A DNA stretch of 59,200 bases from a virus. The stretch lies in IMG/VR virus record IMGVR_UViG_3300025018_002313; one strand, written 5' to 3'. Below are positions 16,125 through 55,921 of this stretch, piece after piece. The notes beneath the pieces were generated by a model, which saw nothing but the letters and a program-made list of their open reading frames with translations, did not search any database and was not told the origin of the DNA. The position numbers were made by a program, and so were the translations under genes. Positions within the stretch are counted from its first letter, which is position 1. The number at the start of each line of letters is the position of its first letter.

Positions 16125-16181
16125 CGATTCAATTTCTATATATAATTTGATTTCCTAGAGAGGCTTCATATAATATAATAT

Positions 16182-34028: not shown

Positions 34029-34076
34029 GTATTAAGGTACTGAAAGGTTTAATCACCCGAAAGAGGGAGTAGTAGC

Positions 34077-34334
34077 ATGAATTGGAATGAATATTTTGAA
34101 GACGTAGATATAGATTTTACATACCAATATAAAACTGGGCTAGTTACATTAATAGTTGATCCTGTCACATTTGACATGACAGCAGCGGAAGCGCGAGTAA
34201 CTGTTTTCGACAGTCTATCAGGAGTAGAAGATTTCGTCAAGCAACACGAACATTATCTATATTATAACTGTACGCATAATAAGAAATATAATACCTACGG
34301 GTACGGTACTTCTACGAGAATAACACCCCAGTAG
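34077..34334 (+). CDS. Hypothetical small protein
   Basis: 85 aa ORF between gp47 and the glycan island. Confidence 0.25.
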   Translation: MNWNEYFEDVDIDFTYQYKTGLVTLIVDPVTFDMTAAEARVTVFDSLSGVEDFVKQHEHYLYYNCTHNKKYNTYGYGTSTRITPQ

Positions 34335-34385
34335 TATTTACAAAAGAACAATATGACTTCTGTCAGAAAGCAGTGTGGAAAATAA

Positions 34386-35231
34386 ATGAAAAATAAAATA
34401 GGACTAGGAATAGTTACATATAATAAAGAAGATAGACTAAAACAAAGTGGCGCAACAGTACCAGTCGATGCAGTAGATTCGTTCGTTGTTGTTAATGACG
34501 GCACACCGTACTCTGAATACCCGGCAGATGCTGAAGTGATAATTCATCCACGTAACATGTGCGTCGGTGTCGCGAAGAATACCGCTATGCGTCACCTATT
34601 ACAAGCAGGATGTGATCATATTTTCTTAATGGAAGACGATATGCTTATTAAACGTCCAGATGTATTCGAAGCATATATTCACGCTGCCGAGAATAGCGGA
34701 ATATGGCATATGAACTATGCCCTACAAGGACCAGCAAACAGAAAGCAAGTAAATAATGGTCCAATGTATATTGATAAGAGACAAGAACTCGATCAGACAT
34801 CTGAACCAAATCCAAGAGCAACTATTGATTATGATGGTATAGATGTATCGTTCTATCCTAACTCAGTCGGATCGTTTTCTTACTACTTAAAAGGAGTTAT
34901 TAAAACAGTTGGATATCATGATGAACAATTTAAGAATGCCTGGGAGCATGTAGAACATACATATAGAGTTATTAAGGCAGGGTTACATCCTCCTTTCTGG
35001 TGGTTTGCAGATATTGCCAATAGTTACGAATATCTTACAGACATCCCTAACTGTATAGAGGAAAGTACGATCGCGCATACCCCTGAATGGATACAAAATT
35101 TTCAAAAAGGCATGGCTTGGTTTAAGAGTAAGCATGGATATGTACCACAACAAATACCAGATACAGATGCAAACCAAGTAATACAAACACTTGATCAAAT
35201 AAAGAGCAGTTATGCACGTAAAGTTCTGTAA
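34386..35231 (+). CDS. Glycosyltransferase-like protein (GT-A / GT2-like)
   Basis: 281 aa. N-terminal IGLGIVTYNKEDRL and an acidic DxD-type motif (LMEDDML), typical of GT2 enzymes. Confidence 0.4.
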   Translation: MKNKIGLGIVTYNKEDRLKQSGATVPVDAVDSFVVVNDGTPYSEYPADAEVIIHPRNMCVGVAKNTAMRHLLQAGCDHIFLMEDDMLIKRPDVFEAYIHAAENSGIWHMNYALQGPANRKQVNNGPMYIDKRQELDQTSEPNPRATIDYDGIDVSFYPNSVGSFSYYLKGVIKTVGYHDEQFKNAWEHVEHTYRVIKAGLHPPFWWFADIANSYEYLTDIPNCIEESTIAHTPEWIQNFQKGMAWFKSKHGYVPQQIPDTDANQVIQTLDQIKSSYARKVL

Positions 35232-35605
35232 CGGGTCCGTTATGAATATCAATGTAGCTAATACTAGAATTAATACTGAACCAAAAAAACTGATGAACGG
35301 CTGGTCCATTAAGGTAGATATAGAAACTTATGATTCTTGTACTCCTAGTTTGATAACGATGCCCGACAAAAAAATAAAGCGCGTATTTCGTCTATGCAAA
35401 GGATTAATATGAAAAATCAAAAAACAGAATTTGATGGTGGATTACCGAAGATATGTATTCCTATGATGCGTCGCACATTCCCAGAATTAATAACTAATGA
35501 GATCGTTGGTGTACAACCAATGAGCGGCTTTAATTCTAAGATAAAATCTCAGAGGAGTATCAGAGAGAAAATAAAGAGAATTATTAACAATTTGAGAGGA
35601 TTAAT

Positions 35606-36136
35606 ATGACAACTTTAGTTAAGACATTTGATGAGATGAAAGAGATGTTCAACCAGCAGATTGAAGATAATAAAGTCAGATACTACGAAAAGACAGGACT
35701 AGCATGTATACGTGAAGCGATATCTGGAGAGGTAGAGACTACAAACGTTGCAAAGGAAGGTGATTATGTTATTAGGTCCGTTGGAATAAACAGAGAACAA
35801 TATATTGTATCAAAAAAGAAAATCGAAAATAGATACGAATTATTAAGTGATGATATAGATGAAGACGGATTTAAAACATATAAAGCTACAGGGCGTATAT
35901 TCGGATTTCAATATACTGGTATAGTTACATTCAGATTTAAAGCATCCTGGGGAGAACTTATGCTTGTAAACGATGGTGATTATATTTGTACGCCAGATAC
36001 AAACACCTACGATGATCGTCTACCAAAAGTACTTATTCCGATGGTTCATCATAAGATACGCGAGTTAATCACAAACGGAACTGATATATATCGAATAGAA
36101 CAAAACGAATTTAAGCGTAGCTATAAGGAGATATAA
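35606..36136 (+). CDS. Hypothetical protein
   Basis: 176 aa. Preceded by two small overlapping ORFs (35212..35412 and 35394..35609) that may be real small genes. Confidence 0.3.
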   Translation: MTTLVKTFDEMKEMFNQQIEDNKVRYYEKTGLACIREAISGEVETTNVAKEGDYVIRSVGINREQYIVSKKKIENRYELLSDDIDEDGFKTYKATGRIFGFQYTGIVTFRFKASWGELMLVNDGDYICTPDTNTYDDRLPKVLIPMVHHKIRELITNGTDIYRIEQNEFKRSYKEI

Positions 36137-36915
36137 TGCGTATCGGACTTTTAATGCCTGCTAGAGAGAGACTAAATTTAAACCTAACGTTTATCTCCTC
36201 TATTATCACAACAGTTGAGAATATCGAAAACGTTACTCTATACATGGGGATTGACGATGATGATCCAACTCGTGATATTCAGATGAAAATTGCTAATGCA
36301 ATTCCATTTGTTAAGTTCGTACCTATTCATAATGAAGGTAAATTTATTGGCTTAGGTAAAATGTGGAATATTCTTGCTGCAGAGTGTAAAGAAGAGATCT
36401 TTGGATATGTTGGTAACGACATGATCTTTCGAACACCTAATTGGGATAGAAAGATTATAGACAAGTTCGAAAAGGAATGTCCAAAGGATAACATAATGCT
36501 GTATCATTGCAATGACGGGCATAGAGGGCCTGAATTATGTGTTAATGCTTTTGTACACAGAAAATATATGGAGATAGTAGGATATTTCATTCGTGATGAA
36601 TTTCTAATCAATTGGTCTGATCAATGGATGCACCAGATTTTCGATTCTTTCGGTCGGTTAGAATATATACCAGATATACTAATTGAACATAATCATTGGA
36701 TATTCGGCGGCCGTGAGCGAGATACAACCGCCAACAGAATGCTCAGTGATAACCATGATAGAGTTAGCGATAATATGTGGACTAAGTTAGGACCAGAGAG
36801 AGACGCTGAAGCTAAACAACTTAGTAGATATCTAAAAATATCCCCAGATTGGAGTAAAATTGAAAACAAATCTAGAGACATTGGCGAGAGAAACTTTAAT
36901 ACATACACCTGGTAA
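36136..36915 (+). CDS. Hypothetical protein, possibly a nucleotide-sugar transferase
   Basis: 259 aa with an acidic MGIDDDDPT motif. Confidence 0.25.
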   Translation: MRIGLLMPARERLNLNLTFISSIITTVENIENVTLYMGIDDDDPTRDIQMKIANAIPFVKFVPIHNEGKFIGLGKMWNILAAECKEEIFGYVGNDMIFRTPNWDRKIIDKFEKECPKDNIMLYHCNDGHRGPELCVNAFVHRKYMEIVGYFIRDEFLINWSDQWMHQIFDSFGRLEYIPDILIEHNHWIFGGRERDTTANRMLSDNHDRVSDNMWTKLGPERDAEAKQLSRYLKISPDWSKIENKSRDIGERNFNTYTW

Positions 36916-37116
36916 TATAGTAGAGATCGGAGGAGGGTAGGTAATGCTACTGTTGGATTTTTACGTGTTGCTAGAGAGTTAGATAGGACGGTTATTGTTA
37001 TTGATCCTTTTGAAGAAGCGTTAGACAAAACACCGCCATCGTACATTAAACCTTATACAAAAACTCAATTTCTTAAAAATACCGACAACTATAAAGAGCA
37101 TCTTCATTTATGTCAA

Positions 37117-37401
37117 ATGTTTTCTGCTGACCCAAAAGTGTATGATGAACTATTAAATTATACGCCAATCTCATTTGCGTTTGTAGATGGGCTACAGTTT
37201 AAAGATAGTGTGTTATCCGATTTAGCTTTAATGACTAGACTAAACGTGCCAGTTATTTGTGTTGATGATTTTACGAGAAATACAGATATAAGTCAAGTAC
37301 CTGAAGCAACAATTGAGTTTTTGAAGCAAGGTAAGTATACAGTGCAGGAGACGTTTGATAGAGGAGCAGGGCGTGTAGTAGGAGTGTTTAAAATAAAATG
37401 A
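37117..37401 (+). CDS. Hypothetical protein
   Basis: 94 aa ORF. Confidence 0.25.
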   Translation: MFSADPKVYDELLNYTPISFAFVDGLQFKDSVLSDLALMTRLNVPVICVDDFTRNTDISQVPEATIEFLKQGKYTVQETFDRGAGRVVGVFKIK

Positions 37402-38705
37402 AATTATCAATTCTAATTTGTAGTTTGGAGGATCGTCTGGTACAGTTGCAACAACTGAGAACTAAGTTAATAGACCAGAGCGATATGGATGTAGTAGAGA
37501 TATTGACCGAGACAGATGCCGGTGAAATGCACACAGGAGCAAAGAGAAATAAACTACTACTACAGGCAAAAGGAGATTACATCGCATTTGTTGATGATGA
37601 TGATATGGTATCGGATGATTATGTCTCAAAAATACTTAAAGCAATTGAAACAAATCCTGATTGTTGTGGACTAGAAGGTATTATAACAACAGATGGAAAC
37701 AACCCACACTTATTCATACACTCGCTAACTTGCGGTAGCTGGTACGAGAAGGACGGAATATACTATCGTACACCTAATCATCTAAACACAGTAAAGCGGG
37801 AAATTGCACTAAAAGTTATGTTTAATGATGATATGTCGAATTGTGAAGATAGAGACTATTCTCTACGGATACAACCTTACCTAAAAACTGAAGAATATAT
37901 AAAAGGTCCTATATACTTTTATAAATGTACTTCTGCACCAAAACAGTACAATAAACAACGAGTAAACAAATCAAAAGTAATACTTGTTAACTATGCGGAT
38001 AAACATTTTTATCACTCACAGAAGCATAATACAGAAACAGGAAAACAATTTGGTTTTAACGGTGCAGCTGAATGTAATTTGAACTCTCTTGATATAAATT
38101 TTCGAAATAAATTCGCACATATCCTCAATCAATCCAGAGGTGCAGGGTATTGGCTATGGAAACCGTATATAATATGCAAAGTACTTGAACAAGTCAACTA
38201 CGGTGATATCGTTTTTTATTGCGATTCAGGTGCTATATTTGAGAAAGATATAACACCATTAATTGATATATGTAGAGAAGATGATATAGTTCTTTTTCAT
38301 ATAGCACCGCACGGGGTGACTGAGCCACATACAAATGCAAAATGGACAAAAAGAGATGCATTTGTATTAATGGGGTGTGACGAAGAAAAGTATTACAATG
38401 CTAATCAATATCTAGGCGGCTTTCAAATATACAAAAAGACAGATAGAACAATGGTCTTTGTGAAGGAGATGCTCAAATACTCACAAGATGAAAGAATAAT
38501 TACTGATCTCCCAAATACTTGTAATTTACCAAATCTACCACAGTTTAGAGAACATAGACATGATACATCAGTTTTGAGCCTGATGGCTACAAAATACGGT
38601 ATAAAAGGACATAGGGATCCGTCCCAATTTGGTGATGATTTTCATCATATGTATCCGGATGACAAATATGATAGAATAATACTATCAACGAGAGACAGGC
38701 GATGA
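37398..38705 (+). CDS. Family-2-like glycosyltransferase
   Basis: 435 aa. N-terminal LSILICSLEDR...GAKRNKLLLQAKGDYIAFVDDDDMV, the GT2 signature with a DxD motif. Confidence 0.5.
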   Translation: MKLSILICSLEDRLVQLQQLRTKLIDQSDMDVVEILTETDAGEMHTGAKRNKLLLQAKGDYIAFVDDDDMVSDDYVSKILKAIETNPDCCGLEGIITTDGNNPHLFIHSLTCGSWYEKDGIYYRTPNHLNTVKREIALKVMFNDDMSNCEDRDYSLRIQPYLKTEEYIKGPIYFYKCTSAPKQYNKQRVNKSKVILVNYADKHFYHSQKHNTETGKQFGFNGAAECNLNSLDINFRNKFAHILNQSRGAGYWLWKPYIICKVLEQVNYGDIVFYCDSGAIFEKDITPLIDICREDDIVLFHIAPHGVTEPHTNAKWTKRDAFVLMGCDEEKYYNANQYLGGFQIYKKTDRTMVFVKEMLKYSQDERIITDLPNTCNLPNLPQFREHRHDTSVLSLMATKYGIKGHRDPSQFGDDFHHMYPDDKYDRIILSTRDRR

Positions 38706-39337
38706 GTGTTGTAAATACAGAATTAAAATATATATTCATTCATAATCCAAAGGTCGCCGGTACATCCATGGAGCAGATTGTCGGTGGATCTTCACACCAA
38801 ACGATACACGGATATTATACCCAAGGTATAAATTTGGAGGATTTTTATAAATGGATGTTTGTTAGAAACCCATATACAAGATTAATATCTGCATACAACC
38901 AGGCGAAAGCCGGCCCAACAATTTTTATAAATCGACATACCCAGAATAAAATGTCACTGGATGAGTTTAAAAATATAACTATAAACTTCACAACATTCGT
39001 CGCGAATATACACAAACTGTTTGACTTCAATTTGCAAAACTATAATGAGGAAATGTTCCATAAAAACCAACATATCATCATGGATCATATTGCACCTCAG
39101 TCTTACTTTTGTAATATTGACGGAAAAAATGTACTGGATTTTATAGGTAGGCTTGAATCTATCGATTGCGATTGGTTTTCACTTTGTCGTAAAATCGGAA
39201 TCATACAGACACTACCACAAATGAATATCGGTATATCCAGTAGTGTCACAAACTATTATCAATCACAAAGTACTATTGATATTGTAAACGAACTATACAA
39301 TACTGATTTTGAGCTTTTTGGATACAATAAATTATGA
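38702..39337 (+). CDS. Carbohydrate sulfotransferase-like protein (Sulfotransfer_2-type)
   Basis: 211 aa. 5'-PSB-like IFIHNPKVAGTS and 3'-PB-like FVRNPYTRLISAY (RDPxxRxxSxY pattern). Confidence 0.5.
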   Translation: MSVVNTELKYIFIHNPKVAGTSMEQIVGGSSHQTIHGYYTQGINLEDFYKWMFVRNPYTRLISAYNQAKAGPTIFINRHTQNKMSLDEFKNITINFTTFVANIHKLFDFNLQNYNEEMFHKNQHIIMDHIAPQSYFCNIDGKNVLDFIGRLESIDCDWFSLCRKIGIIQTLPQMNIGISSSVTNYYQSQSTIDIVNELYNTDFELFGYNKL

Positions 39338-40149
39338 AACTTAACTTAGATAAAATTATTATAAGCACAAACGATGATCCAGATTTTTACAATTTCTGGG
39401 AACTAGCATACCGAGGATGGAAAGCATTCTTTCCGGAAATTGAAATGATACTCACGTTTATTACAAATCGATCGGAAGATGATACGATAGTAACCCATCT
39501 GCGTAGGTGGGGCACTGTTAAGCTATATAAAGAAATTCCTGGTATACCTACACCAAATCTCGCAAAAGTGTCTCGAATGATCGAAGCAACGAAGCACGGA
39601 GATGCTATTTGTATGGTGAATGACATAGATCTAGTACCACTTCAAAGAGAGTATGTAGTTGAACGGTTATCACATTTTGATCCTGATAAGCTATTAGGTA
39701 TCGGTACTCTGAATCATATCGGATTAAAAGATAAATTTCCGATGGGATATACAACAGCAGTAAGTAGCGTGTGGAATCGAATAGTTAATCCAAATAATCT
39801 CGGATATGAAGATCTTGTCAATAGTTGGCGGAATATTCAGCATTTTGATTTACAGGAAGCAGTAAATAATTTACCAGCGGACGGAGTCAATCCTAGAGGC
39901 TTCTCTGACGAGTCATTGTTGAGATATTTACGCTCTAGAGAGCCGTCTATCCTTAATCAGATAGAGCGTGGATTTGTGCCCCTACAAGATGGAGTGGATA
40001 GAGCAGCCTGGAGTAATCTAGATATAGATAGACTTAATAGAGGTGGTTACGTTGAAGCACATTTACTACGACCACTTACGAAATATATAAAAGAAATAAA
40101 TGTAATCGCAGATTACATAAAAAAGGTAGAGCGTGAAAAAAGTATTTAG
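39334..40149 (+). CDS. Hypothetical protein, possibly GT-A-like
   Basis: 271 aa with acidic STNDDPDF and MVNDIDLVPL motifs. Confidence 0.25.
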   Translation: MKLNLDKIIISTNDDPDFYNFWELAYRGWKAFFPEIEMILTFITNRSEDDTIVTHLRRWGTVKLYKEIPGIPTPNLAKVSRMIEATKHGDAICMVNDIDLVPLQREYVVERLSHFDPDKLLGIGTLNHIGLKDKFPMGYTTAVSSVWNRIVNPNNLGYEDLVNSWRNIQHFDLQEAVNNLPADGVNPRGFSDESLLRYLRSREPSILNQIERGFVPLQDGVDRAAWSNLDIDRLNRGGYVEAHLLRPLTKYIKEINVIADYIKKVEREKSI

Positions 40150-40696
40150 ATTTGATGATATTTGTATTAATAGTAAAATGACTGATGCGATATTGATGGC
40201 AGAAGAAATAAAAAAGCAAGTACAGAATGCAGAAGTTTGGTTCTGTGTTTCGCCGATGGTTCATACCATAGACGACCCTGATCCTGTGTCACAGCAGAGA
40301 ATATTTCCAAAGATATTTAACGCTCACAGTGATTATAGGATATTTTACACCATCAATAAATGCGGAGTGCCTGATTTTCCTGCATGGATAACCCGTGCAG
40401 GTCATGGACTCATTCACGTGGATCATCGATTACTTGAACACGCGGCTCAAGAATTAAGTATTTTAACAAGCTGCAATCTGGTTAACGCCGATATATTTGT
40501 ACCACCGTTTAACAAGTGGAACAAAATCACCGAGCGGATTTGTCAGGAGAATGACATACATTTAGTGAAATTTGAGGACGGCTGGTTAAGTGCAGAACAT
40601 AACGAATATAACATGAAACACGATAAATGGTATTTACATCATAGAGCGTTTACAGTAGCAGAATTTAAAGAATGGTTGGAGGTAAAACATGGATAA
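40133..40696 (+). CDS. Possible polysaccharide deacetylase-like (NodB / CE4-like) protein
   Basis: 187 aa. FRFDDIC resembles NodB motif TFDDG; HGLIHVDH resembles the H-x-x-x-H metal motif. Weak. Confidence 0.25.
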   Translation: MKKVFRFDDICINSKMTDAILMAEEIKKQVQNAEVWFCVSPMVHTIDDPDPVSQQRIFPKIFNAHSDYRIFYTINKCGVPDFPAWITRAGHGLIHVDHRLLEHAAQELSILTSCNLVNADIFVPPFNKWNKITERICQENDIHLVKFEDGWLSAEHNEYNMKHDKWYLHHRAFTVAEFKEWLEVKHG

Positions 40697-41168
40697 ACAA
40701 TTTGGTGGAAGCGGTATTACAAAAGAAGTATTTGACTGGATTACTGATAACATTTCAGTTGGAAAAGTAATAGTCGAACTAGGTGCAGGAGACGTTAGTA
40801 CAAAATATCTATCTGAACGATATGAATTATACTCTGTTGAAGATGTACCGAAATTTTGCGGTAAATGGGCAAGTACATACATTCACGCGCCATTGGTTGA
40901 TGGGTGGTATGATATAAACATACTAAAGGAAGGTCTACCAGAAAGATTCAGCCTGTTGCTTATTGACGGTCCGGTCAAATTTTCAGACTTCCGTCCTGGT
41001 GTAGGAGATAGATTAAAAATTCTTGATCACCTGGATTTATTTGACAAAGACGCTATCATCATTGTTGATGATACAAATAGACCGGCGGAGAGAAATCTAC
41101 TAGATGCACTAGCACAAAAAACCGGTAAAAAGAAAACAGTATTCTCGTCCTTTGGAGTGCTACAGTGA
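40689..41168 (+). CDS. Possible class I SAM-dependent methyltransferase
   Basis: 159 aa with a VIVELGAGDVSTKYL Gly-rich motif-I-like segment. Confidence 0.3.
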   Translation: MDKQFGGSGITKEVFDWITDNISVGKVIVELGAGDVSTKYLSERYELYSVEDVPKFCGKWASTYIHAPLVDGWYDINILKEGLPERFSLLLIDGPVKFSDFRPGVGDRLKILDHLDLFDKDAIIIVDDTNRPAERNLLDALAQKTGKKKTVFSSFGVLQ

Positions 41169-41713
41169 TAGTCGCAATACATCAACCTAATTTCTTTCCT
41201 TGGTATCCATTCTTTAAAAAGATGGATCAGGCAGATGTGTTTGTTATTCTTACGCATTGTCAATTCGAAAAAAATAATTACCAAAATAGATTTCATTATA
41301 ATGATAAATGGTATACGTTGAGTGTAAATAAAGGACTTGAACCTATCCATCAAAAAGTATATGTTCGACCAAATGATGATTGGGTTAAGATTAAAAGTAA
41401 TCTTAAACAGTTTCCACTTGATCAATTTGATGATGATATTGACGCATCATTATGGGCAACTAATGAAAAAATTATTTCTCGAATAAAAAGTATCCTCGAT
41501 ATTAAAACTACTATTAAACTCGACTATCCAACTGAATTAAATAAATCAGAGCGCTTAGTTGATATATGCAAGCAACACAATGCAACACAATACCTTGCTG
41601 GTAGAGGTGCAAAGAACTATATGGATATAGAACCATTTGAAAGAGCCGGTATTGAAGTAATCTATCAAGAAGTTGACGAAAAAGATATGGTACCTATTAT
41701 AACGAAATTATGA
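41165..41713 (+). CDS. WbqC-like family protein (O-antigen / glycan biosynthesis associated)
   Basis: 182 aa. MIVAIHQPNFFPWYPFFKKMDQADVFVILTHCQFEKNNYQNR matches the WbqC-family N-terminal signature HQP.y.Pw...f.K...D.fv.LD.vqf.k...nRn. Confidence 0.5.
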   Translation: MIVAIHQPNFFPWYPFFKKMDQADVFVILTHCQFEKNNYQNRFHYNDKWYTLSVNKGLEPIHQKVYVRPNDDWVKIKSNLKQFPLDQFDDDIDASLWATNEKIISRIKSILDIKTTIKLDYPTELNKSERLVDICKQHNATQYLAGRGAKNYMDIEPFERAGIEVIYQEVDEKDMVPIITKL

Positions 41714-42450
41714 ATAACAAACTATTACACAACAAGCAATTTTTAAACTTTATCGGATCAGATTGGGGCGGACTCTATGTTGATTTGAAGTTGATTGAAC
41801 AAGATAGTACAGTAATATCAGCAGGTCTTGGTAGTGATGTATCGTTTGATTTAGCTTTGATGGAACTTAAGAACTGTACTGTTATTGGCATCGATCCAAC
41901 ACAAACTGCTAGAGATACAGTATTCGAGACAGCAGATGGGAATCCATTATTTGCAAAGAACTTTCGGTATGTGCAGAGAGCGCTGCTCGATGTGTCTGAC
42001 AGAGAAATTACTCTAGGTGGACCAGCCGTAACATTTATATCTCCTCACGGGGAACACGCAAGGACAGTATGTCTGAACGATGTATATGATAAGATCGACA
42101 GAGAAAAAGTATCTTTCCTAAAACTCGATATTGAAGCGGCAGAATATCCCGTTATTCAGAGTTTTACTCCGTTACCATCGATGGCACAAATAGGTATAAG
42201 CTTCCACCACTGGCTAAACGGACCTACGGATCAGTATCCAAATCCCGGAGCCACCTGCCCCTACACCCTAGATGATACAGTTGCATGTATTGAAAAGATA
42301 AAGAGCTTTGGATATAAATTGGTGCATATAGATAATGCAGACCCACTACGATATTTTCAAGAGGTTTTATTCATACGCTCTGACCTTGCAGAGAAATACA
42401 AAGACTTAACGTTTGAATATGAAGGTAATAATATAAAGAAGAACAAATGA
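41710..42450 (+). CDS. FkbM-family-like methyltransferase
   Basis: 246 aa with VISAGLGSDVSFDLAL...VIGIDP, the pattern seen in FkbM-domain methyltransferases. Confidence 0.35.
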   Translation: MNNKLLHNKQFLNFIGSDWGGLYVDLKLIEQDSTVISAGLGSDVSFDLALMELKNCTVIGIDPTQTARDTVFETADGNPLFAKNFRYVQRALLDVSDREITLGGPAVTFISPHGEHARTVCLNDVYDKIDREKVSFLKLDIEAAEYPVIQSFTPLPSMAQIGISFHHWLNGPTDQYPNPGATCPYTLDDTVACIEKIKSFGYKLVHIDNADPLRYFQEVLFIRSDLAEKYKDLTFEYEGNNIKKNK

Positions 42451-42611
42451 CGGATGAAAGATATAGCAAACTACTAAATTTGCATGAGAGACTAAAAGAA
42501 GTAAAGAGTATGAAGAAATCTGCAGCTAAAGACTATAGAGATCAAATTAAAGAAATTGAAGAAGAAATTGAAGGATTGGTCGAAGACATAAGAGAACAAC
42601 CAGAAAAGTAA
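42447..42611 (+). CDS. Small coiled-coil protein (54 aa)
   Basis: Manual translation MTDERYSKLLNLHERLKEVKSMKKSAAKDYRDQIKEIEEEIEGLVEDIREQPEK. Its ATG overlaps the upstream stop (ATGA). Below the length cutoff of the ORF track. Confidence 0.3.
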   Translation: MTDERYSKLLNLHERLKEVKSMKKSAAKDYRDQIKEIEEEIEGLVEDIREQPEK

Positions 42612-42620
42612 TTAGGTATG

Positions 42621-42648
42621 TTGCAAAATATGGTATCGATCGTATAAT
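42621..42648 (+). promoter_or_regulatory. Sigma70-like promoter (TTGCAA, 16-nt spacer, TATAAT) directly upstream of the guaC-like gene
   Basis: ttgcaa at 42621..42626 and tataat at 42643..42648. The ATG at 42655 is only 6 nt downstream, which implies a leaderless or very short-leader mRNA. Confidence 0.3.
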
Positions 42649-42654
42649 TTAATT

Positions 42655-43671
42655 ATGAAAGCAAGAACATTCTCAGACGTAACGATTATACCGAAATTTA
42701 CATGTGTCGGTCGCAATGGTAGTTTAGCTACAAGACTCTGCAACGGGGAAGATTCACTTGAACTCCCTATTATCTCCGCCAATATGCCTGCGATTGCAAA
42801 TGCAGAAGTATGCGATGCAATGAGGTATGGCGGAGGTATGGGTATTCTGCATCGTTTTAATGAAGTGAATGAAGCAGTGGAAGAATATAACCATGCATCA
42901 TTTGGTGGAAAGTCTATTGTAGGTGTGTCGTTAGGTGTAAAAAATGATGATACCTACAATAGATTCGAGAAACTATATGAAGCAGGCGCGAGAGTGTTTT
43001 GTATTGATGTAGCTCACGGACATCAAGATAAAGTTCACTCACTACTAAAATGGATCAATAATCAAATATTCCAATGGGCTAGAAGTGAAAGAAATAAGGT
43101 GACTCTTATTGCCGGTAATGTTGCTACTGCTGATGCTGTAATAGCATTAGGTGAATGGGGAGCAGATATTGTTAAAGTTGGAATTGGTCCCGGTAGTGCT
43201 TGCACTACAAGACTTGATACCGGAGTAGGTGTCCCACAATTGTATGCTCTCGAGCAGGCACACAATGCAGTAATGCAGCAGAAAGTACCAGTTAAAATCA
43301 TCTCCGATGGTGGATGTAAATGTACAGGTGATATTGCAAAAGCCTTAAAATATGCGGATGCTGTTATGGTAGGCTTTATGCTAGCAGGTACAACTGAAAC
43401 TCCCGGTGAGTATATTAACGTTGGCGGTAAGCAGATGAAAGTATATTTTGGCTCAGCAAGTTTTAAGAATAAAGGTGAAAAGAAGCATATAGAAGGTAGA
43501 GATTTTCTAGTTGAAAAGAAGGGATCCATTAGTGATGTTCTTGATAAGATTAGAGACGGGCTACATTCATCACTGGGATATGTTGGAGCAAGTAATTTAC
43601 AACAATTTAAAAACAATTGTGAGTTCTTAGATATAACTGCTGGAGGTAAAGCAGAAAGCAAATATGAGTAA
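42655..43671 (+). CDS. guaC: GMP reductase (IMPDH/GMPR family, GuaC type without CBS domains)
   Basis: 338 aa. CIDVAHG, GADIVKVGIGPGSACTTR, SDGGCKCTGDIAKA and YVGAS match E. coli GuaC CIDVANG, GADIVKVGIGPGSVCTTR, SDGGCTTPGDVAKA and YVGAS. The catalytic Cys is present. Confidence 0.8.
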   Translation: MKARTFSDVTIIPKFTCVGRNGSLATRLCNGEDSLELPIISANMPAIANAEVCDAMRYGGGMGILHRFNEVNEAVEEYNHASFGGKSIVGVSLGVKNDDTYNRFEKLYEAGARVFCIDVAHGHQDKVHSLLKWINNQIFQWARSERNKVTLIAGNVATADAVIALGEWGADIVKVGIGPGSACTTRLDTGVGVPQLYALEQAHNAVMQQKVPVKIISDGGCKCTGDIAKALKYADAVMVGFMLAGTTETPGEYINVGGKQMKVYFGSASFKNKGEKKHIEGRDFLVEKKGSISDVLDKIRDGLHSSLGYVGASNLQQFKNNCEFLDITAGGKAESKYE

Positions 43672-44617
43672 AATTTTAGTTACAGGTGGTTGCGGGTTTA
43701 TCGGTAGTAACTACGTCGATTATAAGTTACTAACAGATTCAAGCATAGAAATTATTTGTGTCGATACATTGGATATTGGTGGATCAGAGGATAATGTTTC
43801 TGAGTGGTCTAGAAATAGTGGACGATACAAAATGTATAATACTGATATTTGTGATGCAGATGAAATGAGTAAAATTTTTGCATATGAAATGCCAGATATT
43901 GTTGTAAATTTCGCAGCACAAACTCATGTTGATCGAAGTCTCATCGACAGAACATATTTCGCAACAACAAATGTAGTCGGTACGCAAGTAATATTGGATC
44001 AAATAATTAAGTATAAAACAAAGCGCTTTGTGCAAGTATCTACAGACGAAGTGTATGGCAGTATCGATAGCGGTCTATTCGAAGAGACATTTATGCTTCA
44101 TCCAAATAATCCATACTCTGCTACTAAAGCTGGCGCTGAGATGCTTGTACAGGCCGCAGTTCATTCATTTGGAGTTAATGCTTCTATTACAAGAAGTTGC
44201 AACAATTACGGTCCGAGACAATACCATGAAAAACTAATACCAATGGTTATTCATAATGCTCTTAAAGGTCTTCCTGTTAAAGTCTTTAATGATGGGCTAT
44301 CAATAAGAGAATGGATATATGTTCTCGACAATGTAATCGGAATTGACACAGTGGTCGAAAAAGGCAGGAGAGGTGAGGTATATAATATCGGTTCAGGTAT
44401 CGAACTTCAGAATATTGATGTAGTTACCACTGTATTAGATATTCTAGGTAAACCTCATAGTCTAATCGAATATACAAATGATCGTGCAAATGATGATCGT
44501 AGATACGCACTTAACTGTTCGAAGATATTTACTCACCTAGAATGGCGATCAAAAGTAAATTGGAAAGAAGGCATCAACCAAACGGTTGAATGGTATCTGG
44601 CAAACAAATATGAATAA
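43664..44617 (+). CDS. rmlB: dTDP-glucose 4,6-dehydratase (RmlB / RfbB, SDR family)
   Basis: 317 aa. ILVTGGCGFIGSNYV Rossmann motif, YSATK catalytic motif, and the characteristic RfbB length. Confidence 0.7.
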   Translation: MSKILVTGGCGFIGSNYVDYKLLTDSSIEIICVDTLDIGGSEDNVSEWSRNSGRYKMYNTDICDADEMSKIFAYEMPDIVVNFAAQTHVDRSLIDRTYFATTNVVGTQVILDQIIKYKTKRFVQVSTDEVYGSIDSGLFEETFMLHPNNPYSATKAGAEMLVQAAVHSFGVNASITRSCNNYGPRQYHEKLIPMVIHNALKGLPVKVFNDGLSIREWIYVLDNVIGIDTVVEKGRRGEVYNIGSGIELQNIDVVTTVLDILGKPHSLIEYTNDRANDDRRYALNCSKIFTHLEWRSKVNWKEGINQTVEWYLANKYE

Positions 44618-45416
44618 GAAAATTATAGTATTAGGTAACGGGCTACTCGGAGATGAATTCAAAAGACATGGATATACTGTCTGGGGATCAGGAGATCCGT
44701 TTTGTTACAAACACGGTGACGGTACGTACACTTATTGCTGGGAATCACTGGATCAATTTGATGTTATAATCAACTGTCTTGGTAAGACTGTAACTCGTTG
44801 GTGTGAATCTCCTTGCAATTATTCAGCTGCATTGTATGCGAATGGAACACTACCCGGACTTCTAAGCATTGGATGCAAAGAACACAATCAAAAATTCGTA
44901 CATATATCAACAGGCTGTCTATACGATATCTCAGATACACCACAAACTGAGGAAGATCATATTGTAGCACATTGCAACTATACAGTGACAAAATGGATGG
45001 GAGAACAAATATGTGCTCCATCCAGAGATCTTATTATTCGTCCAAGATTACTATATAATGATCAACCAACAGCGAAGAATTTACTAGGAAGACTTCCTAC
45101 GTTTTCCAAATTAGTCGGAAAATTAGATTCTATGACAAGTACGAACACTATAGTTGAAGCAGTTGAAGCTCTATTAAGCAACAACCAGGCTGGTATTTTT
45201 AATGTTGCAAATCGTGGCTATGTTTCTATGTATGAGGTCGGACAGATCATCGGATGTAGAGCTGAAAAAACAACGATAGAAGAAGTTCGAAAGGAAAGCC
45301 ATATTCATCTCGTTAATACTACAATGGACGTTTCAAAATTATTACAGTTTTATGATCCCGGTGATGTCCGTAGTGAAATTACAAGGTGTTGGAAAGCGAT
45401 GAATGAAGGAAGTTAA
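44586..45416 (+). CDS. dTDP-4-dehydrorhamnose reductase-like (RmlD-like) SDR
   Basis: 276 aa. IIVLGNGLLGDE, DVIINCLG, HISTGCLYD, YTVTKWMGE and IIRPRLLY parallel the RfbD motifs. Confidence 0.5.
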   Translation: MNGIWQTNMNKKIIVLGNGLLGDEFKRHGYTVWGSGDPFCYKHGDGTYTYCWESLDQFDVIINCLGKTVTRWCESPCNYSAALYANGTLPGLLSIGCKEHNQKFVHISTGCLYDISDTPQTEEDHIVAHCNYTVTKWMGEQICAPSRDLIIRPRLLYNDQPTAKNLLGRLPTFSKLVGKLDSMTSTNTIVEAVEALLSNNQAGIFNVANRGYVSMYEVGQIIGCRAEKTTIEEVRKESHIHLVNTTMDVSKLLQFYDPGDVRSEITRCWKAMNEGS

Positions 45417-53610: not shown

Positions 53611-53912
53611 TGACAAAATACGTAATTGGTATTGTTCATCCGAAGCGGGGTAATATATACTTACGGACTATACATAAAACTGAAGCACATGTAACAAGTA
53701 ATCGTGAGTTTATTCGACCAAGTGCTACATTTTATACACCCGACAAGGCATATCAAGCTATTGAGCAGATCAATGAACTATGGGGGAATGACAAATGGTT
53801 TTCGACACGTAGTAGTGATCTATATAAAGCAGAAAAAGTTATACTAAAATGGCATGTACCGTGTCACGGCATACAAGAAGATTTATTGATAAAAGATATA
53901 GGAGAATTCTAA
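53610..53912 (+). CDS. Hypothetical protein
   Basis: 100 aa ORF. Start overlaps the uvsX stop; its own stop overlaps the next start. Confidence 0.3.
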   Translation: MTKYVIGIVHPKRGNIYLRTIHKTEAHVTSNREFIRPSATFYTPDKAYQAIEQINELWGNDKWFSTRSSDLYKAEKVILKWHVPCHGIQEDLLIKDIGEF

Positions 53913-54718
53913 TGGTAAAAATATCCCATGAATGTCCATTTTCATTAATGGAGAAGGCACGAACTGACTTTAATGATTATGATTATTGTCTTGTTCACTT
54001 ACTTGAGAAGGATGAAAGATATCTAAATTTCTTCGTTGAATCGAAGAAAATGGGTCGCCATATTTTACTCGATAATTCAATTTTTGAGCTAGGTACAGCA
54101 TTTAATCCAGTACAGTTCGCAAAGTGGGTTGATTGGCTTAAGCCCCAGGAGTATATTATTCCCGATGTTCTTGAAGATTGTAAAGGAACTATACAAAATG
54201 CAAAAGATTGGCTTGCAACATATAGTGACTTACCAGGAATAAAGATTGGTGTTGTACAAGGAAAAACATATTCAGAGTTAGTAGAGTGCTATGAATTTAT
54301 GTCGAAAAATGTAGATAAAATTGCAATCAGTTTTGATTACAGCTATTATGAATTAACTGGGCTTGGCCATAATAAATGGCAGAAGTTTGCGAATGGTCGA
54401 CAGAATTTTATATTCCGTATGTTAGCCGAAAAGAAATGGAACTTCTGGAAACCACATCACTTGTTAGGTGCTGCAGTGCCCCAAGAGTTTAAATTTTATG
54501 CGGATTTATGGGATAACGCAAACATCCAATCTCTTGATACATCTAATCCAATTCAGCAAGCACTACTCGGACATGAATATACTATACACGGTCTTATTGA
54601 TAAAGATACAACAAAAGTAGCAGATTCATTTAATGCAGATTATAATGAAACGGACCTATCCATGTTAAGTGATAACGTCTGTATGTTCAGAAAATTTTGC
54701 AGTGGAGCAGTAAAATGA
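53912..54718 (+). CDS. tRNA-guanine-transglycosylase-fold protein, DpdA-like 7-deazaguanine DNA transglycosylase candidate
   Basis: Start moved to the ATG at 53912 (RBS ggag 7 nt upstream, TAATG overlap). HHLLGAAVPQEFKFYADLWDNANIQSLDTSNP parallels TGT HLLGVGKPDDIV...GIDMFDCVLPTRSG. ILLDNSIFELG parallels the TGT DSGGFQ region. Confidence 0.55.
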   Translation: MVKISHECPFSLMEKARTDFNDYDYCLVHLLEKDERYLNFFVESKKMGRHILLDNSIFELGTAFNPVQFAKWVDWLKPQEYIIPDVLEDCKGTIQNAKDWLATYSDLPGIKIGVVQGKTYSELVECYEFMSKNVDKIAISFDYSYYELTGLGHNKWQKFANGRQNFIFRMLAEKKWNFWKPHHLLGAAVPQEFKFYADLWDNANIQSLDTSNPIQQALLGHEYTIHGLIDKDTTKVADSFNADYNETDLSMLSDNVCMFRKFCSGAVK

Positions 54719-55257
54719 GATGGTGTGCATATTTTAGTCAAACTGGTAGCGAGATACTAGAAGTATCGAAAGCTATTAATAGGTTTCCAGATGTTGTATT
54801 TTATAATACAAACTTTGGTACTAAGCCACCTATAAATATTGAACTGATTACAGAACTGAATACACGTAAAATACCACTCCATATTCTACCGAATAAGCCG
54901 AGAGTACAAGACTATAAAACGTTCTTACTAGAAGGCGACTTATTAACTTTACACGGATGGCTAAGAATTATTCCACCAGAAATATGTGATGAGTTTGAAA
55001 TATATAACGGTCACCCTGGACTTATAACAGAGCATCCAGAACTTAAAGGACAGGATCCTCAAAAGAAAGCATATGAATTAGGGTTACCATACAGTGGGTG
55101 CGTAATTCATAAGGTAACTGCTGAAGTAGACGCGGGTGAGATAGTTCTCGCAGAAGAAATAAAAATTGAAAAATTGGAGCTTGATGTTATAATTAATGTT
55201 TTACATGATACATCAATCAAATTATGGGTAGAGTTTTTAGAGAGTAAATTGCAATAA
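54715..55257 (+). CDS. PurN-like formyltransferase (formyl_trans_N domain)
   Basis: Start at MRWCAYFSQTGSEIL, with the ATG overlapping the upstream stop. NGHPGLITEHPELKG and GCVIHKVTAEVDAGEIV match PurN/FMT N-HP-SLLP and G-TVH...D-G.I catalytic motifs. Confidence 0.6.
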   Translation: MRWCAYFSQTGSEILEVSKAINRFPDVVFYNTNFGTKPPINIELITELNTRKIPLHILPNKPRVQDYKTFLLEGDLLTLHGWLRIIPPEICDEFEIYNGHPGLITEHPELKGQDPQKKAYELGLPYSGCVIHKVTAEVDAGEIVLAEEIKIEKLELDVIINVLHDTSIKLWVEFLESKLQ

Positions 55258-55269
55258 TTAAGGAGAATA

Positions 55270-55920
55270 ATGAGAATATCTATTAGCGGATCGCAATGTG
55301 TTGGAAAGACAACACTAATTAATGATTTGTTCAGTAAGATTGAAATCAATCAACGATTCAGTCTAAGAAATGAAACTACACGAAATGTATTAAGAGACAA
55401 TCTCGGATTTGGTACTCTACCAATTAACGAGGAGGGTGGAGATCTGACACAACGATTGATCTGTTCACAGCATTTAATCAATCACGCAGCTGGGGAAACT
55501 GGAGATGTTATCTACGATCGTTGCGCATTAGATGGGTTGGTTTATACTTCATATTTATATGATGTTAATCGTGTAAGTAGAGAGACGCTTCGCATTGCGG
55601 AAGCAATTTTTGAAAATACTAAGTATGACATTATGTTCTACATTCCTCCAGAGGTTCCGTTGGAGGAAGATGGGGAAAGAAGTGTAAGCCCGTCATTTCG
55701 TAATTCAATCTGTAATTTATTCGAGGAGTATATTACCAGTTATAATCTTCAAGTCGGATACCTAAAAGGTACACGCGAAGAGAGAGTTCAGAGAATCTTA
55801 GAAACAATTAAAGCATATGATGATTATCAAAATAAACAAACAAAAATGTTTAATACACTTGATAAGAATCTGCAGAACGCAATCCAGACTATTAAAACTG
55901 ATTTACATATAAAGGAGTAA
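55270..55920 (+). CDS. P-loop NTPase / kinase-like protein, paralog B of the 20587..21273 gene
   Basis: 216 aa. Walker A GSQCVGKTT and shared downstream motifs with paralog A. Sits between the formyltransferase and queF. Confidence 0.5.
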   Translation: MRISISGSQCVGKTTLINDLFSKIEINQRFSLRNETTRNVLRDNLGFGTLPINEEGGDLTQRLICSQHLINHAAGETGDVIYDRCALDGLVYTSYLYDVNRVSRETLRIAEAIFENTKYDIMFYIPPEVPLEEDGERSVSPSFRNSICNLFEEYITSYNLQVGYLKGTREERVQRILETIKAYDDYQNKQTKMFNTLDKNLQNAIQTIKTDLHIKE

Positions 55921-55921
55921 C

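What the first reader, a model, noticed from the sequence alone, without database searches (positions are those of the whole stretch)
42655..43671. Phage-encoded GMP reductase (guaC) embedded in the modification/glycan island, with its own sigma70-like promoter
The catalytic motifs are nearly identical to bacterial GuaC, so the assignment is strong. GuaC irreversibly converts GMP to IMP, which is an odd auxiliary gene for a phage. It may matter that this phage replaces guanine in its DNA with 7-deazaguanine derivatives. Draining the guanine nucleotide pool could favour 7-deazapurine flux, either by feeding GTP-derived preQ0 synthesis differently or by lowering competition. It could also rebalance purines toward dATP for an AT-rich genome. 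The upstream TTGCAA-N16-TATAAT promoter sits 6 nt from the ATG and suggests early, host-sigma70 expression as a leaderless transcript.
Basis: partly seen in the sequence, partly recalled or inferred. Interest (0 to 1): 0.6.

Follow-up and report, generated by a model that had tools for sequence, protein, structure and literature searches.

The report
Phage GMP-reductase-like gene with leaderless promoter
A large T4-like phage carries an intact enzyme gene of the IMP dehydrogenase/GMP reductase family, most likely a GMP reductase that shifts guanine nucleotides toward adenine; such genes are already annotated in many phages, and here it shows no link to the phage's 7-deazaguanine DNA modification genes.

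Summary
The ORF at 42655-43671 (+, 338 aa) is real. It is a full-length IMPDH/GMPR barrel with no CBS pair. Cys183, Thr185 and Glu280 are conserved, and the IMPDH Arg-Tyr flap segment is deleted. That favours GMP reductase chemistry. The "strong" GuaC call is overstated, though. The protein misses every curated GMPR and IMPDH cutoff (226 bits against 344). It sits in its own phage-dominated, uncharacterised clade outside type-1 and type-2 GuaC.

The promoter geometry is as described: TTGCAA-N16-TATAAT, then 6 nt, then ATG. A plain scan finds such sites no more often than chance. However, the same geometry is kept in relatives with 87% and 60% protein identity and a different upstream gene. An early promoter with a leaderless or near-leaderless start is therefore plausible.

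The phage does carry a DpdA3/DpdN/kinase/QueF module collinear with Flavobacterium phage immuto_2-6A. Across lineage relatives the GuaC-like gene and this module occur independently (3 both, 3 GuaC-like only, 2-3 module only, 2 neither). GenBank DpdA3 phages have no GuaC-like gene. GMPR-like genes are already annotated in many cultured phages.

Verdict: ordinary auxiliary nucleotide gene, new member of a known kind, modest interest.

The parts
42621..42626 (+). -35-like hexamer TTGCAA
   Evidence: Read directly and listed by the scan. Conserved as TTGCAA in L001 and TTGAAA in L100 at the same spacing.
42643..42648 (+). -10 hexamer TATAAT, 16 nt after the -35 and 6 nt before the ATG. This puts the predicted transcription start at or next to the A of the ATG.
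   Evidence: L001 has TATCAT and L100 has TATAAT at the identical distance. In L100 the stop codon of a different upstream gene lies inside the hexamer.
42655..43671 (+). CDS, 338 aa: CBS-less IMPDH/GMPR-fold enzyme, predicted GMP reductase of an uncharacterised phage-dominated clade
   Evidence: ORF. PF00478 at 1.3e-78 over the full length. Below all NCBIfam cutoffs. PHROG 9582. AF2 model pLDDT 81.5, TM 0.87 to IMPDH catalytic domains. Own clade with 96% bootstrap.
43201..43203 (+). Codon of catalytic Cys183 in the loop GIGPGSACTTR. Thr185 lies two residues later.
   Evidence: Invariant in alignment A1 with E. coli GuaC and GuaB and S. aureus GuaC.
43444..43503 (+). Short flap YFGSASFKNKGEKKHIEGRD, including Glu280. 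The IMPDH segment that carries the Arg-Tyr water-activating dyad is absent.
   Evidence: The alignment to IMPDH 5upy shows a 9-residue gap where DRYFQ lies. Alignments A1 and one search show the same flap length as type-2 GuaC (YFGSASEFQKGEHKNVEGK).
42447..42611 (+). Upstream 54-aa charged ORF. Its stop is followed by the 43-nt spacer that holds the promoter-like element.
   Evidence: The gene is called in L002-L006.
43664..44617 (+). dTDP-glucose 4,6-dehydratase (RmlB). Its ATG overlaps the end of the GuaC-like gene by 8 nt, so the two are probably co-transcribed and translationally coupled.
   Evidence: TIGR01181 scores 371.1 bits against a cutoff of 365.1. The overlap is visible. The same pair is present in L100.
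34386..45416 (+). Glycan island inserted between gp47 (32952-34028) and gp46 (45403-47211). Only its first gene (a 281-aa glycosyltransferase) and the GuaC-like gene are conserved among relatives.
   Evidence: Synteny is seen in seven contigs. Relatives without the island have gp47 adjacent to gp46.
53849..57037 (+). Context only: DpdA3-like transglycosylase, DpdN-like formyltransferase, thymidylate-kinase-like protein and QueF. This 7-deazaguanine module is distributed independently of the GuaC-like gene.
   Evidence: [quoted passage not shown] QueF Pfam and NCBIfam hits. Distribution in relatives.

Best explanation
The gene encodes an active, CBS-less enzyme of the IMPDH/GMPR superfamily that most likely works as an NADPH-dependent GMP reductase (GMP + NADPH -> IMP + NH3 + NADP+, through a Cys183 thioimidate). 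It belongs to a distinct clade found mainly in phages, for which no characterised member turned up in my searches. Its likely role is general purine economy: moving guanine ribonucleotides salvaged from the host into IMP and on to adenylates for a large phage genome of 36% GC. It has no specific role in 7-deazaguanine modification. It is transcribed, together with the overlapping rmlB-like gene, from a sigma-70-type early promoter placed so that the transcript starts at or next to the ATG.

Shown here: the fold, the conserved catalytic residues, the missing IMPDH dyad and CBS pair, the clade placement, the conservation of promoter geometry, and the lack of co-occurrence with the Dpd module.

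Inferred: substrate and cofactor, direction of flux, physiological role, and the actual transcription start.
For: - Fold and domain structure: full-length PF00478 with no CBS.
- Catalytic residues: Cys183, Thr185, Glu280, Asp118 and Asp218 are invariant against E. coli GuaC and GuaB and S. aureus GuaC.
- Missing IMPDH dyad: the flap segment with the Arg-Tyr dyad is deleted in the query and in all family members. Flap length and sequence match type-2 GuaC.
- Family scores and tree: the best NCBIfam model is GMP reductase PRK05458. In the NJ tree the family groups with the type-1 and type-2 GMPR side at 69% bootstrap.
- Established knowledge (my recollection of Hedstrom's reviews of IMPDH/GMPR; not re-read here): members lacking the dyad that have been characterised are GMP reductases.
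- Genomic context elsewhere: in unrelated phage contigs the homologue sits with nucleotide-salvage genes. These are nucleoside 2-deoxyribosyltransferase and a phosphoribosyltransferase in L010/L011, nucleoside 2-deoxyribosyltransferase in L183, and class II RNR in L102.
- Base composition: all sampled phages with such genes are AT-rich. Measured GC is 33% for TMA, 38% for Cr30, 50% for XacN1, 35% for Mel-JY01, 30% for L007 and 36% for the window. The first three are far below their hosts, whose GC I take from memory.
- Promoter: the geometry is conserved in L001 and L100. Three of 23 plus-strand sites with at least 10/12 matches lie 6-9 nt before a start codon. The 5' region is less folded than shuffles.
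Against: - The protein is below every curated GMPR cutoff (226 against 344 bits). A true Streptococcus GuaC scores 612.
- By raw similarity it is slightly closer to IMPDH catalytic domains (190 bits) than to the B. anthracis GMPR 1ypf (169 bits).
- Its Cys loop and C-terminal GGxxESK tail look like IMPDH or type-1 GMPR rather than type-2 GuaC.
- The clade is separate from both characterised GuaC clades, and the node joining it to them has only 69% support.
- I found no characterised member of the clade.
- In this lineage the gene always sits at the end of a glycosyltransferase island. Purine rebalancing does not explain that position.
- The GC argument is anecdotal, because phages in general are more AT-rich than their hosts.
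Confidence: 0.6

Rival explanations
1. First reader's idea, sharpened. The enzyme serves the 7-deazaguanine pathway. One version: it acts as a sink that removes the guanine released by DpdA3 base exchange (guanine -> GMP -> IMP). Another version: it tunes GTP flux into preQ0 synthesis.
For: The window carries a DpdA3/DpdN/kinase/QueF module 10 kb downstream. DpdA3 phages replace all guanines, so stoichiometric free guanine must be released (PMC10516641). Three lineage members carry both features: the window, the P0009 contig and L102.
Against: The two features are distributed independently among relatives. GuaC-like without the module: L007, L194 and L196. Module without GuaC-like: L188 and L187, plus L238 in another lineage. 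Neither: L120 and L186. None of the 31 GenBank phage records with this DpdA3 (immuto, the CP220 group, phiST and others) is among the 67 records with a GuaC-like hit. Those phages reach full replacement without the enzyme. The loci reach only about 10 kb either side of polB, so copies elsewhere in those genomes cannot be excluded.
Confidence: 0.1
2. It is a deregulated, CBS-less IMP dehydrogenase (IMP -> XMP) that boosts guanine nucleotide supply. That would suit a phage needing GTP for preQ0 as well as dGTP.
For: The best solved-structure matches by sequence and by fold are IMPDH catalytic domains. The Cys loop and C-terminal tail resemble IMPDH. More distant family members (P0076, the Bdellovibrio protein) score best on the IMPDH model. 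From my recollection of Hedstrom-lab work, not re-read here: a Thr-Glu pathway can activate water slowly in IMPDH lacking the Arg.
Against: The Arg-Tyr dyad and its flap segment are missing in every family member. All IMPDH cutoffs are missed by a wide margin (213 against 481.5 bits).
Confidence: 0.1
3. The enzyme is a working part of the glycan island. It might remove or recycle a guanine nucleotide by-product of sugar-nucleotide use. Or it might carry out different chemistry at purine C2, with the thioimidate captured by a nucleophile other than water or ammonia.
For: In seven contigs of this lineage the gene is the conserved last gene of an otherwise hypervariable glycosyltransferase island. 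Eight relatives with gp47 next to gp46 lack both the island and the gene. The unrelated Microcystis phage Mel-JY01 also has its GuaB/GMPR-like gene next to a glycosyltransferase cluster.
Against: The polB tree lets one or two joint deletions explain the correlation. L186 has the conserved island glycosyltransferase but no GuaC-like gene. In other phages the homologue sits with nucleotide-salvage genes and no glycosyltransferases. The only sugar-nucleotide enzymes identified here are dTDP-type, not GDP-type. The Mel-JY01 glycosyltransferases are not detectably homologous to those of the window.
Confidence: 0.08
4. It is an inactive IMPDH-fold paralogue kept for a structural or regulatory role.
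For: None specific. The protein is divergent (35-40% identity to any characterised enzyme), and one phosphate-site Ser is Phe in the window protein (GF instead of GS).
Against: All catalytic and ribose- or cofactor-binding residues examined are invariant across a family spanning 46-87% identity. The model is confident outside the two normally mobile loops.
Confidence: 0.03

Closest known systems
Type-2 GMP reductase (GuaC of Bacillus, Staphylococcus and Streptococcus; NCBIfam NF003966 / TIGR01306; PDB 1ypf)
   Same: No CBS pair and about the same length. Flap of identical length and similar sequence (YFGSAS..KGE.K..EGK). Catalytic Cys, Thr and Glu present. This is the best-scoring curated model.
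   Different: Only 35-39% identity. It scores 226 bits against a cutoff of 344, while true members score about 600. The Cys loop is GSACTTR..GVP-QL rather than GKVCITK..GTGGWQL. It has a longer C-terminal GGKAESKYE tail. It lies outside the type-2 clade, which has 100% bootstrap.
Type-1 GMP reductase (E. coli GuaC, human GMPR1/2; also the 'GMP reductase' genes of phages XacN1 and Cr30)
   Same: Same fold. Cys loop identical at 10 of 11 positions. No Arg-Tyr dyad and no CBS.
   Different: 32% identity. The type-1 flap is longer ([20 protein letters not shown]). It is a separate clade with 100% bootstrap, and that clade contains the XacN1 and Cr30 genes.
IMP dehydrogenase catalytic domain (GuaB; PDB 5upy, 4my1, 4q33)
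   Same: Highest raw sequence and fold similarity (190 bits, TM 0.87). Same Cys loop and a similar C-terminal tail.
   Different: It lacks the CBS/Bateman pair and the flap segment with the catalytic Arg-Tyr dyad.
Phage 'dehydrogenase' family PHROG 9582 and annotated phage IMPDH/GMPR genes (Mel-JY01, Bacillus phage G, Thermus phages TMA/phiYS40, crAss-like cr108_1)
   Same: The window protein matches the PHROG at 6e-89 over its full length. These are phage-borne and CBS-less, and they usually lie among replication or nucleotide-metabolism genes.
   Different: At most 35% identity to any cultured-phage copy. The closest relatives (46-87%) are known only from metagenomes.

Membership tests
GMP reductase (EC 1.7.1.7) | IMPDH/GMPR (beta/alpha)8 barrel covering the whole protein | tested here: met
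   PF00478 at 1.3e-78, residues 4-336. AF2 model with TM 0.87 to solved barrels.
GMP reductase (EC 1.7.1.7) | Catalytic Cys in the GIGPGSxCTTR loop, plus the Thr and Glu that protonate the leaving ammonia | tested here: met
   Cys183, Thr185 and Glu280 are invariant in alignment A1. IMPDH shares these residues, so they do not discriminate between the two.
GMP reductase (EC 1.7.1.7) | Short flap without the IMPDH Arg-Tyr dyad, and no CBS pair (true of types 1 and 2) | tested here: met
GMP reductase (EC 1.7.1.7) | Score at or above a curated equivalog cutoff (NF003966, TIGR01306, NF003470, TIGR01305, NF052358) | tested here: not met
   Scores against cutoffs: 225.9/344, 194.5/465.65, 177.4/397, 156.5/492.15, 167.7/675. 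Relatives P0009 and P0076 also fail.
GMP reductase (EC 1.7.1.7) | Phylogenetic placement inside a clade that contains a characterised GMPR | tested here: not met
   The family is its own clade at 96% bootstrap. The type-1 and type-2 clades (100% each) exclude it. The node joining all three has 69% support.
GMP reductase (EC 1.7.1.7) | NADPH-dependent conversion of GMP to IMP and ammonia | not testable with these tools
   Needs an enzyme assay or genetic complementation.
IMP dehydrogenase (EC 1.1.1.205) | Arg-Tyr dyad on the mobile flap for hydrolysis of E-XMP* | tested here: not met
   The segment is deleted.
IMP dehydrogenase (EC 1.1.1.205) | CBS/Bateman pair inserted in the barrel, and a curated HMM cutoff reached | tested here: not met
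   No CBS. TIGR01302 scores 213 against a cutoff of 481.5.
Sigma-70 promoter driving a leaderless mRNA | -35 and -10 hexamers with a 16-18 nt spacer, the -10 ending 5-8 nt before the ATG, and no Shine-Dalgarno sequence | tested here: met
   TTGCAA-N16-TATAAT, 6 nt, ATG. Many other genes in the window do have GGAG-type Shine-Dalgarno sequences.
Sigma-70 promoter driving a leaderless mRNA | More than chance, and conserved in relatives | tested here: inconclusive
   Site density is not above shuffles. The geometry is kept in L001 and L100 and loosely in L101 and L102, but is absent in L007. Three of 23 sites lie 6-9 nt before starts, against about 0.05 expected by my own rough estimate.
Sigma-70 promoter driving a leaderless mRNA | Mapped 5' end at the A of the ATG | not testable with these tools
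   Needs 5'-RACE, dRNA-seq or Cappable-seq.
Phage 7-deazaguanine (Dpd/Que) modification system | Gene co-occurs with DpdA and preQ genes across genomes | tested here: not met
   Lineage table: 3 both, 3 GuaC-like only, 2-3 module only, 2 neither. There is no overlap between GenBank phages with this DpdA3 and those with a GuaC-like hit.

The most novel reading that the evidence does not exclude
The enzyme is not a housekeeping-type GMP reductase but the conserved partner of the hypervariable glycosyltransferase island. Alternatively it works with DpdA3 as a guanine sink. In either case this dyad-less, CBS-less clade would either capture the Cys-C2 purine intermediate with a nucleophile other than water or ammonia, or be needed to drive a phage-specific modification to completion.
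Probability: 0.1. Interest if true: 0.65.

Novelty: new member of a known kind. Interest (0 to 1): 0.3.

Why it matters
If the prediction holds, this is one more case of large AT-rich phages carrying their own route from guanine to adenine nucleotides. That is useful for annotating a large metagenomic clade of about 340-aa CBS-less IMPDH-fold proteins, which curated models currently leave unnamed.

The negative result also matters. The tempting link between a GMP reductase and 7-deazaguanine DNA is not borne out by gene distribution, so it should not be carried into annotation.

The conserved promoter abutting the start codon, with a second case before the primase-like gene, suggests that leaderless early transcripts may be a feature of this T4-like lineage. 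That can be tested cheaply by 5' end mapping once a cultured member exists.

Tried and rejected
- Megablast of the region against GenBank phages gave no match, so there was no annotated close relative to lean on.
- Literature searches for GMP reductase with 7-deazaguanine, jumbo phages or auxiliary metabolic genes found nothing relevant. The one exception was a one-line mention in a pelagimyophage paper.
- Structure prediction and Foldseek confirmed the fold but cannot separate GMPR from IMPDH.
- I considered a GDP-sugar link through the downstream dehydratase and rejected it. That enzyme passes the dTDP-glucose 4,6-dehydratase cutoff, and the GDP-mannose dehydratase model scores far below its cutoff.
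- I considered the perfect island/GuaC-like correlation as evidence of functional coupling and downgraded it. The polB tree allows one or two joint deletions, and L186 has the island glycosyltransferase without the gene.
- I considered a Bacteroidota host, in which a sigma-70 consensus would be meaningless. This is unlikely because many genes have GGAG-type ribosome-binding sites.
- There is no riboswitch or other Rfam family and no tRNA in the window.
- PDB sequence searches for the DpdA-like protein and the 281-aa glycosyltransferase found nothing useful.
- The antisense ORF 43062-43661 lies wholly inside the gene. I treated it as spurious and did not test it further.
Full report
**The object**

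The ORF at 42655-43671 on the plus strand exists exactly as described. It starts with ATG, encodes 338 aa, and uses the first start after an in-frame stop. Pfam's IMPDH/GMP reductase domain covers residues 4-336 at 1.3e-78, so the start codon is correct and the protein is a bare catalytic barrel with no CBS/Bateman pair.

The window is part of a distant T4-like phage. It encodes a T4-type portal, a tail sheath stabiliser, UvsY, a UvsW-like helicase, a gp55-like sigma factor, gp47, gp46, a family B polymerase, UvsX and a gp41-like helicase. The identical protein occurs on metagenomic contigs of up to 236 kb. GC content of the window is 36%.

**What the protein is**

It is reasonable but not strong.

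Evidence for GMP reductase chemistry:
- Cys183, Thr185, Glu280, Asp118 and Asp218 are invariant in an alignment with E. coli GuaC, E. coli GuaB and S. aureus GuaC.
- The IMPDH flap segment carrying the Arg-Tyr dyad (SSDRYFQ in E. coli GuaB) is deleted. This is visible as a 9-residue gap against IMPDH 5upy and in all family members.
- The remaining flap, YFGSASFKNKGEKKHIEGR, has the same length as that of type-2 GuaC (YFGSASEFQKGEHKNVEGK) and resembles it.
- To my knowledge, dyad-less members of this superfamily that have been characterised are GMP reductases.

Evidence against a firm call:
- The protein misses every curated equivalog cutoff. The best is GMPR PRK05458 at 226 bits against 344. 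IMPDH TIGR01302 scores 213 against 481.5. A genuine Streptococcus GuaC scores 612.
- Against solved structures it scores 190 bits with IMPDH catalytic domains and 169 with the B. anthracis GMPR.
- Its Cys loop (GIGPGSACTTR) and its C-terminal GGKAESKYE tail resemble IMPDH and type-1 GuaC, not type-2.
- In a neighbour-joining tree the protein and its metagenomic relatives form their own clade (96% bootstrap). That clade lies outside the type-1 and type-2 GuaC clades (100% each). The node uniting all three against the more IMPDH-like sequences has 69% support.
- The AlphaFold model (pLDDT 81.5) matches IMPDH barrels at TM 0.87, which confirms the fold but does not discriminate.

My conclusion is a predicted GMP reductase from an uncharacterised third clade. 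I put the probability of GMPR activity at about 0.6-0.7.

**How unusual it is**

It is not very unusual. A tblastn search finds IMPDH/GMPR-like genes in 67 GenBank phage records. Several are annotated as GMP reductase: XacN1, Xoo-sp13, Cr30 and RAS14. Others are annotated as IMPDH/GMPR: TMA, phiYS40 and Mel-JY01. The window protein matches PHROG 9582 ("dehydrogenase") at 6e-89. A pelagimyophage survey mentions a GMP reductase as a gene unique to one ecotype (PMC7029224). No cultured-phage copy exceeds 35% identity, and the closest relatives (46-87%) are all metagenomic. The nearest cellular relatives in a one-genome-per-species collection are at most 45% identical. Below them come Bdellovibrionota proteins and ordinary type-2 GuaC of Burkholderiales, Streptococcus and bacilli at 34-41%.

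**The promoter**

TTGCAA is at 42621-42626, a 16-nt spacer follows, TATAAT is at 42643-42648, then 6 nt, then ATG. There is no Shine-Dalgarno sequence. This is the ideal geometry for a transcript beginning at the A of the start codon.

On its own the match means little. The scan finds 51 such sites in 14 kb against 59 +/- 6.6 in shuffles. Comparison changes the picture:
- L001 (87% protein identity) has TTGCAA-N16-TATCAT-6 nt-ATG.
- L100 (60% identity) has TTGAAA-N16-TATAAT-6 nt-ATG. There the upstream gene is a 341-aa epimerase whose stop codon lies inside the -10 hexamer.
- L102 and L101 have promoter-like elements 9 and 12 nt from the ATG. L007 has none.

Within the window, 3 of the 23 plus-strand sites with at least 10/12 matches end 6-9 nt before a start codon. 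The other two precede the primase-like ORF at 16182 and the methyltransferase at 41710. I estimate roughly 0.05 expected by chance. Many other genes have GGAG-type ribosome-binding sites, so the host very probably uses canonical signals. The 5' region is less structured than shuffles (z = +1.66).

The rmlB-like gene overlaps the end of the GuaC-like gene by 8 nt, here and in L100. The promoter therefore probably serves a longer transcription unit rather than this gene alone. I regard a functional early promoter with a leaderless or near-leaderless start as likely but unproven.

**The island**

In T4-type genomes gp47 and gp46 are neighbours. Here they are separated by about 11 kb (34386-45416). 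The insert encodes glycosyltransferases, a sulfotransferase, a WbqC-like protein, an FkbM-type methyltransferase, the GuaC-like gene, a dTDP-glucose 4,6-dehydratase that passes its curated cutoff, and an RmlD-like protein.

Seven contigs of the lineage share the plan gp47 - 281-aa glycosyltransferase - variable genes - GuaC-like - (optional genes) - gp46. Only the first glycosyltransferase and the GuaC-like gene are conserved. Eight relatives have gp47 directly next to gp46, with neither island nor GuaC-like gene in the fetched DNA. That looks like linkage. However, a polB tree places the island-less phages in nested clades, so one or two deletions suffice to explain it. L186 has the conserved glycosyltransferase but no GuaC-like gene.

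Elsewhere the homologue lies beside nucleotide-salvage genes:
- nucleoside 2-deoxyribosyltransferase in L010/L011 and L183;
- a phosphoribosyltransferase in L010/L011;
- a class II ribonucleotide reductase in L102.

I take the island position as unexplained but weak evidence.

**The 7-deazaguanine idea**

ORFs 53849-57037 encode four proteins: a DpdA-like protein, a PurN-like formyltransferase, a thymidylate-kinase-like protein and QueF. [quoted passage not shown] The paper on that phage reports complete replacement of guanine there and by the DpdA3 family generally, with fdPreQ1 among the new bases described (PMC10516641). FolE, QueD and QueE are not in the window.

The proposed coupling does not hold, for three reasons.
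1. DpdA inserts the base after replication, so lowering dGTP would not reduce competition.
2. Among lineage relatives informative on both sides, the two features vary independently:

| State | Loci |
|---|---|
| Both | window, P0009 contig, L102 |
| GuaC-like only | L007, L194, L196 |
| Module only | L188, L187 (and L238 in another lineage) |
| Neither | L120, L186 |

3. None of the 31 GenBank records with this DpdA3 overlaps the 67 records with a GuaC-like hit.

One caveat applies. Only about 10 kb either side of polB could be examined, so copies elsewhere in those genomes cannot be excluded.

**Most likely role**

GMP reductase is the only route from guanine to adenine nucleotides. Every phage I sampled that has such a gene is AT-rich. 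Measured GC is 33% for TMA, 38% for Cr30, 50% for XacN1, 35% for Mel-JY01 and 30% for L007. The first three are far below their hosts, whose GC I take from memory. It remains an inference, and phages in general run AT-rich.

**Verdict**

This is a real, intact gene, most probably a GMP reductase of an unnamed phage clade, with a plausibly functional leaderless-type promoter. It is embedded in a glycan island for reasons not yet clear, and it is not demonstrably connected to 7-deazaguanine modification. It is a new member of a known kind, of modest interest.

Noticed in passing
window 53849-57037: A four-gene module (DpdA3-like transglycosylase, DpdN-like formyltransferase, thymidylate-kinase-like protein, bimodular QueF with an N-terminal extension) is collinear with Flavobacterium phage immuto_2-6A. 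This predicts formyl-preQ1 DNA with possibly complete G replacement. FolE, QueD and QueE are not in the window. The role of the kinase-like gene is unexplained; the 2023 paper on these systems does not use the word kinase.
   Followed up: partly
window 32952-47211: gp47 and gp46, normally adjacent, are split by an 11-kb hypervariable glycosyltransferase island. Relatives either have a different island at the same place or have gp47 directly next to gp46.
   Followed up: partly
window 34386-35231: The conserved first island gene is a 281-aa glycosyltransferase. It is about 25% identical to cluster C mycobacteriophage glycosyltransferases and has a weak hit to the TET-associated glycosyltransferase family. 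The target of the island (virion protein, DNA or host surface) is unknown.
   Followed up: partly
window 35394-35609 and 35606-36136: Two small ORFs just after that glycosyltransferase carry a motif like the N-terminus of the T4 major capsid protein (..IPM..R.FPELITNEIVGVQPMSG). Pfam Gp23 hits are recorded for the equivalent genes in L002 and L102. They may be decoy or substrate peptides for glycosylation.
   Followed up: no
window 16147-16182 and 41673-41710: Two more sigma-70-like sites end 7 and 9 nt before start codons with no Shine-Dalgarno sequence. TTGATT-N16-TATAAT precedes the Toprim/primase-like ORF 16182-17186. TTGACG-N16-TATTAT precedes the methyltransferase gene at 41710. This suggests leaderless or very short-leader early transcripts recur in this phage.
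   Followed up: partly
window 38702-39337: A sulfotransferase (PF03567, 1.7e-19) lies inside the phage glycan island. This implies a sulfated glycan, which I believe is unusual for a phage.
   Followed up: no
window 47195-48535: A 446-aa protein between gp46 and the polymerase is conserved throughout the lineage (37-75% identity), including in relatives without the island. Its only hit is a weak glycosyltransferase PHROG match. Function unknown.
   Followed up: no
L010 7959-8411, L011 1356-1808, L183 9313-9882: In unrelated phage contigs the GuaC-like homologue lies within about 2 kb of a nucleoside 2-deoxyribosyltransferase-family gene, and in L010/L011 also near a phosphoribosyltransferase. 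This may be a recurring purine-salvage gene set.
   Followed up: no
L014 7974-15393 (Microcystis phage Mel-JY01): An annotated GuaB IMPDH/GMP reductase gene sits directly beside a cluster of glycosyltransferase and methyltransferase genes in a phage unrelated to the window. These glycosyltransferases are not detectably homologous to those of the window.
   Followed up: partly
window 55270-55920 (+) and 20587-21273 (-): There are two paralogous thymidylate-kinase-like / AAA_28 genes, one inside the 7-deazaguanine module and one in the minus-strand block.
   Followed up: no
window 1-30158 versus 30242-59200: There is a sharp strand switch near 30.2 kb with a matching reversal of GC and AT skew. 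Only one sigma-70-like site with at least 10/12 matches lies within 60 nt upstream of a start in the minus-strand block, which holds the portal and tail genes. That fits gp55-type late transcription there.
   Followed up: no
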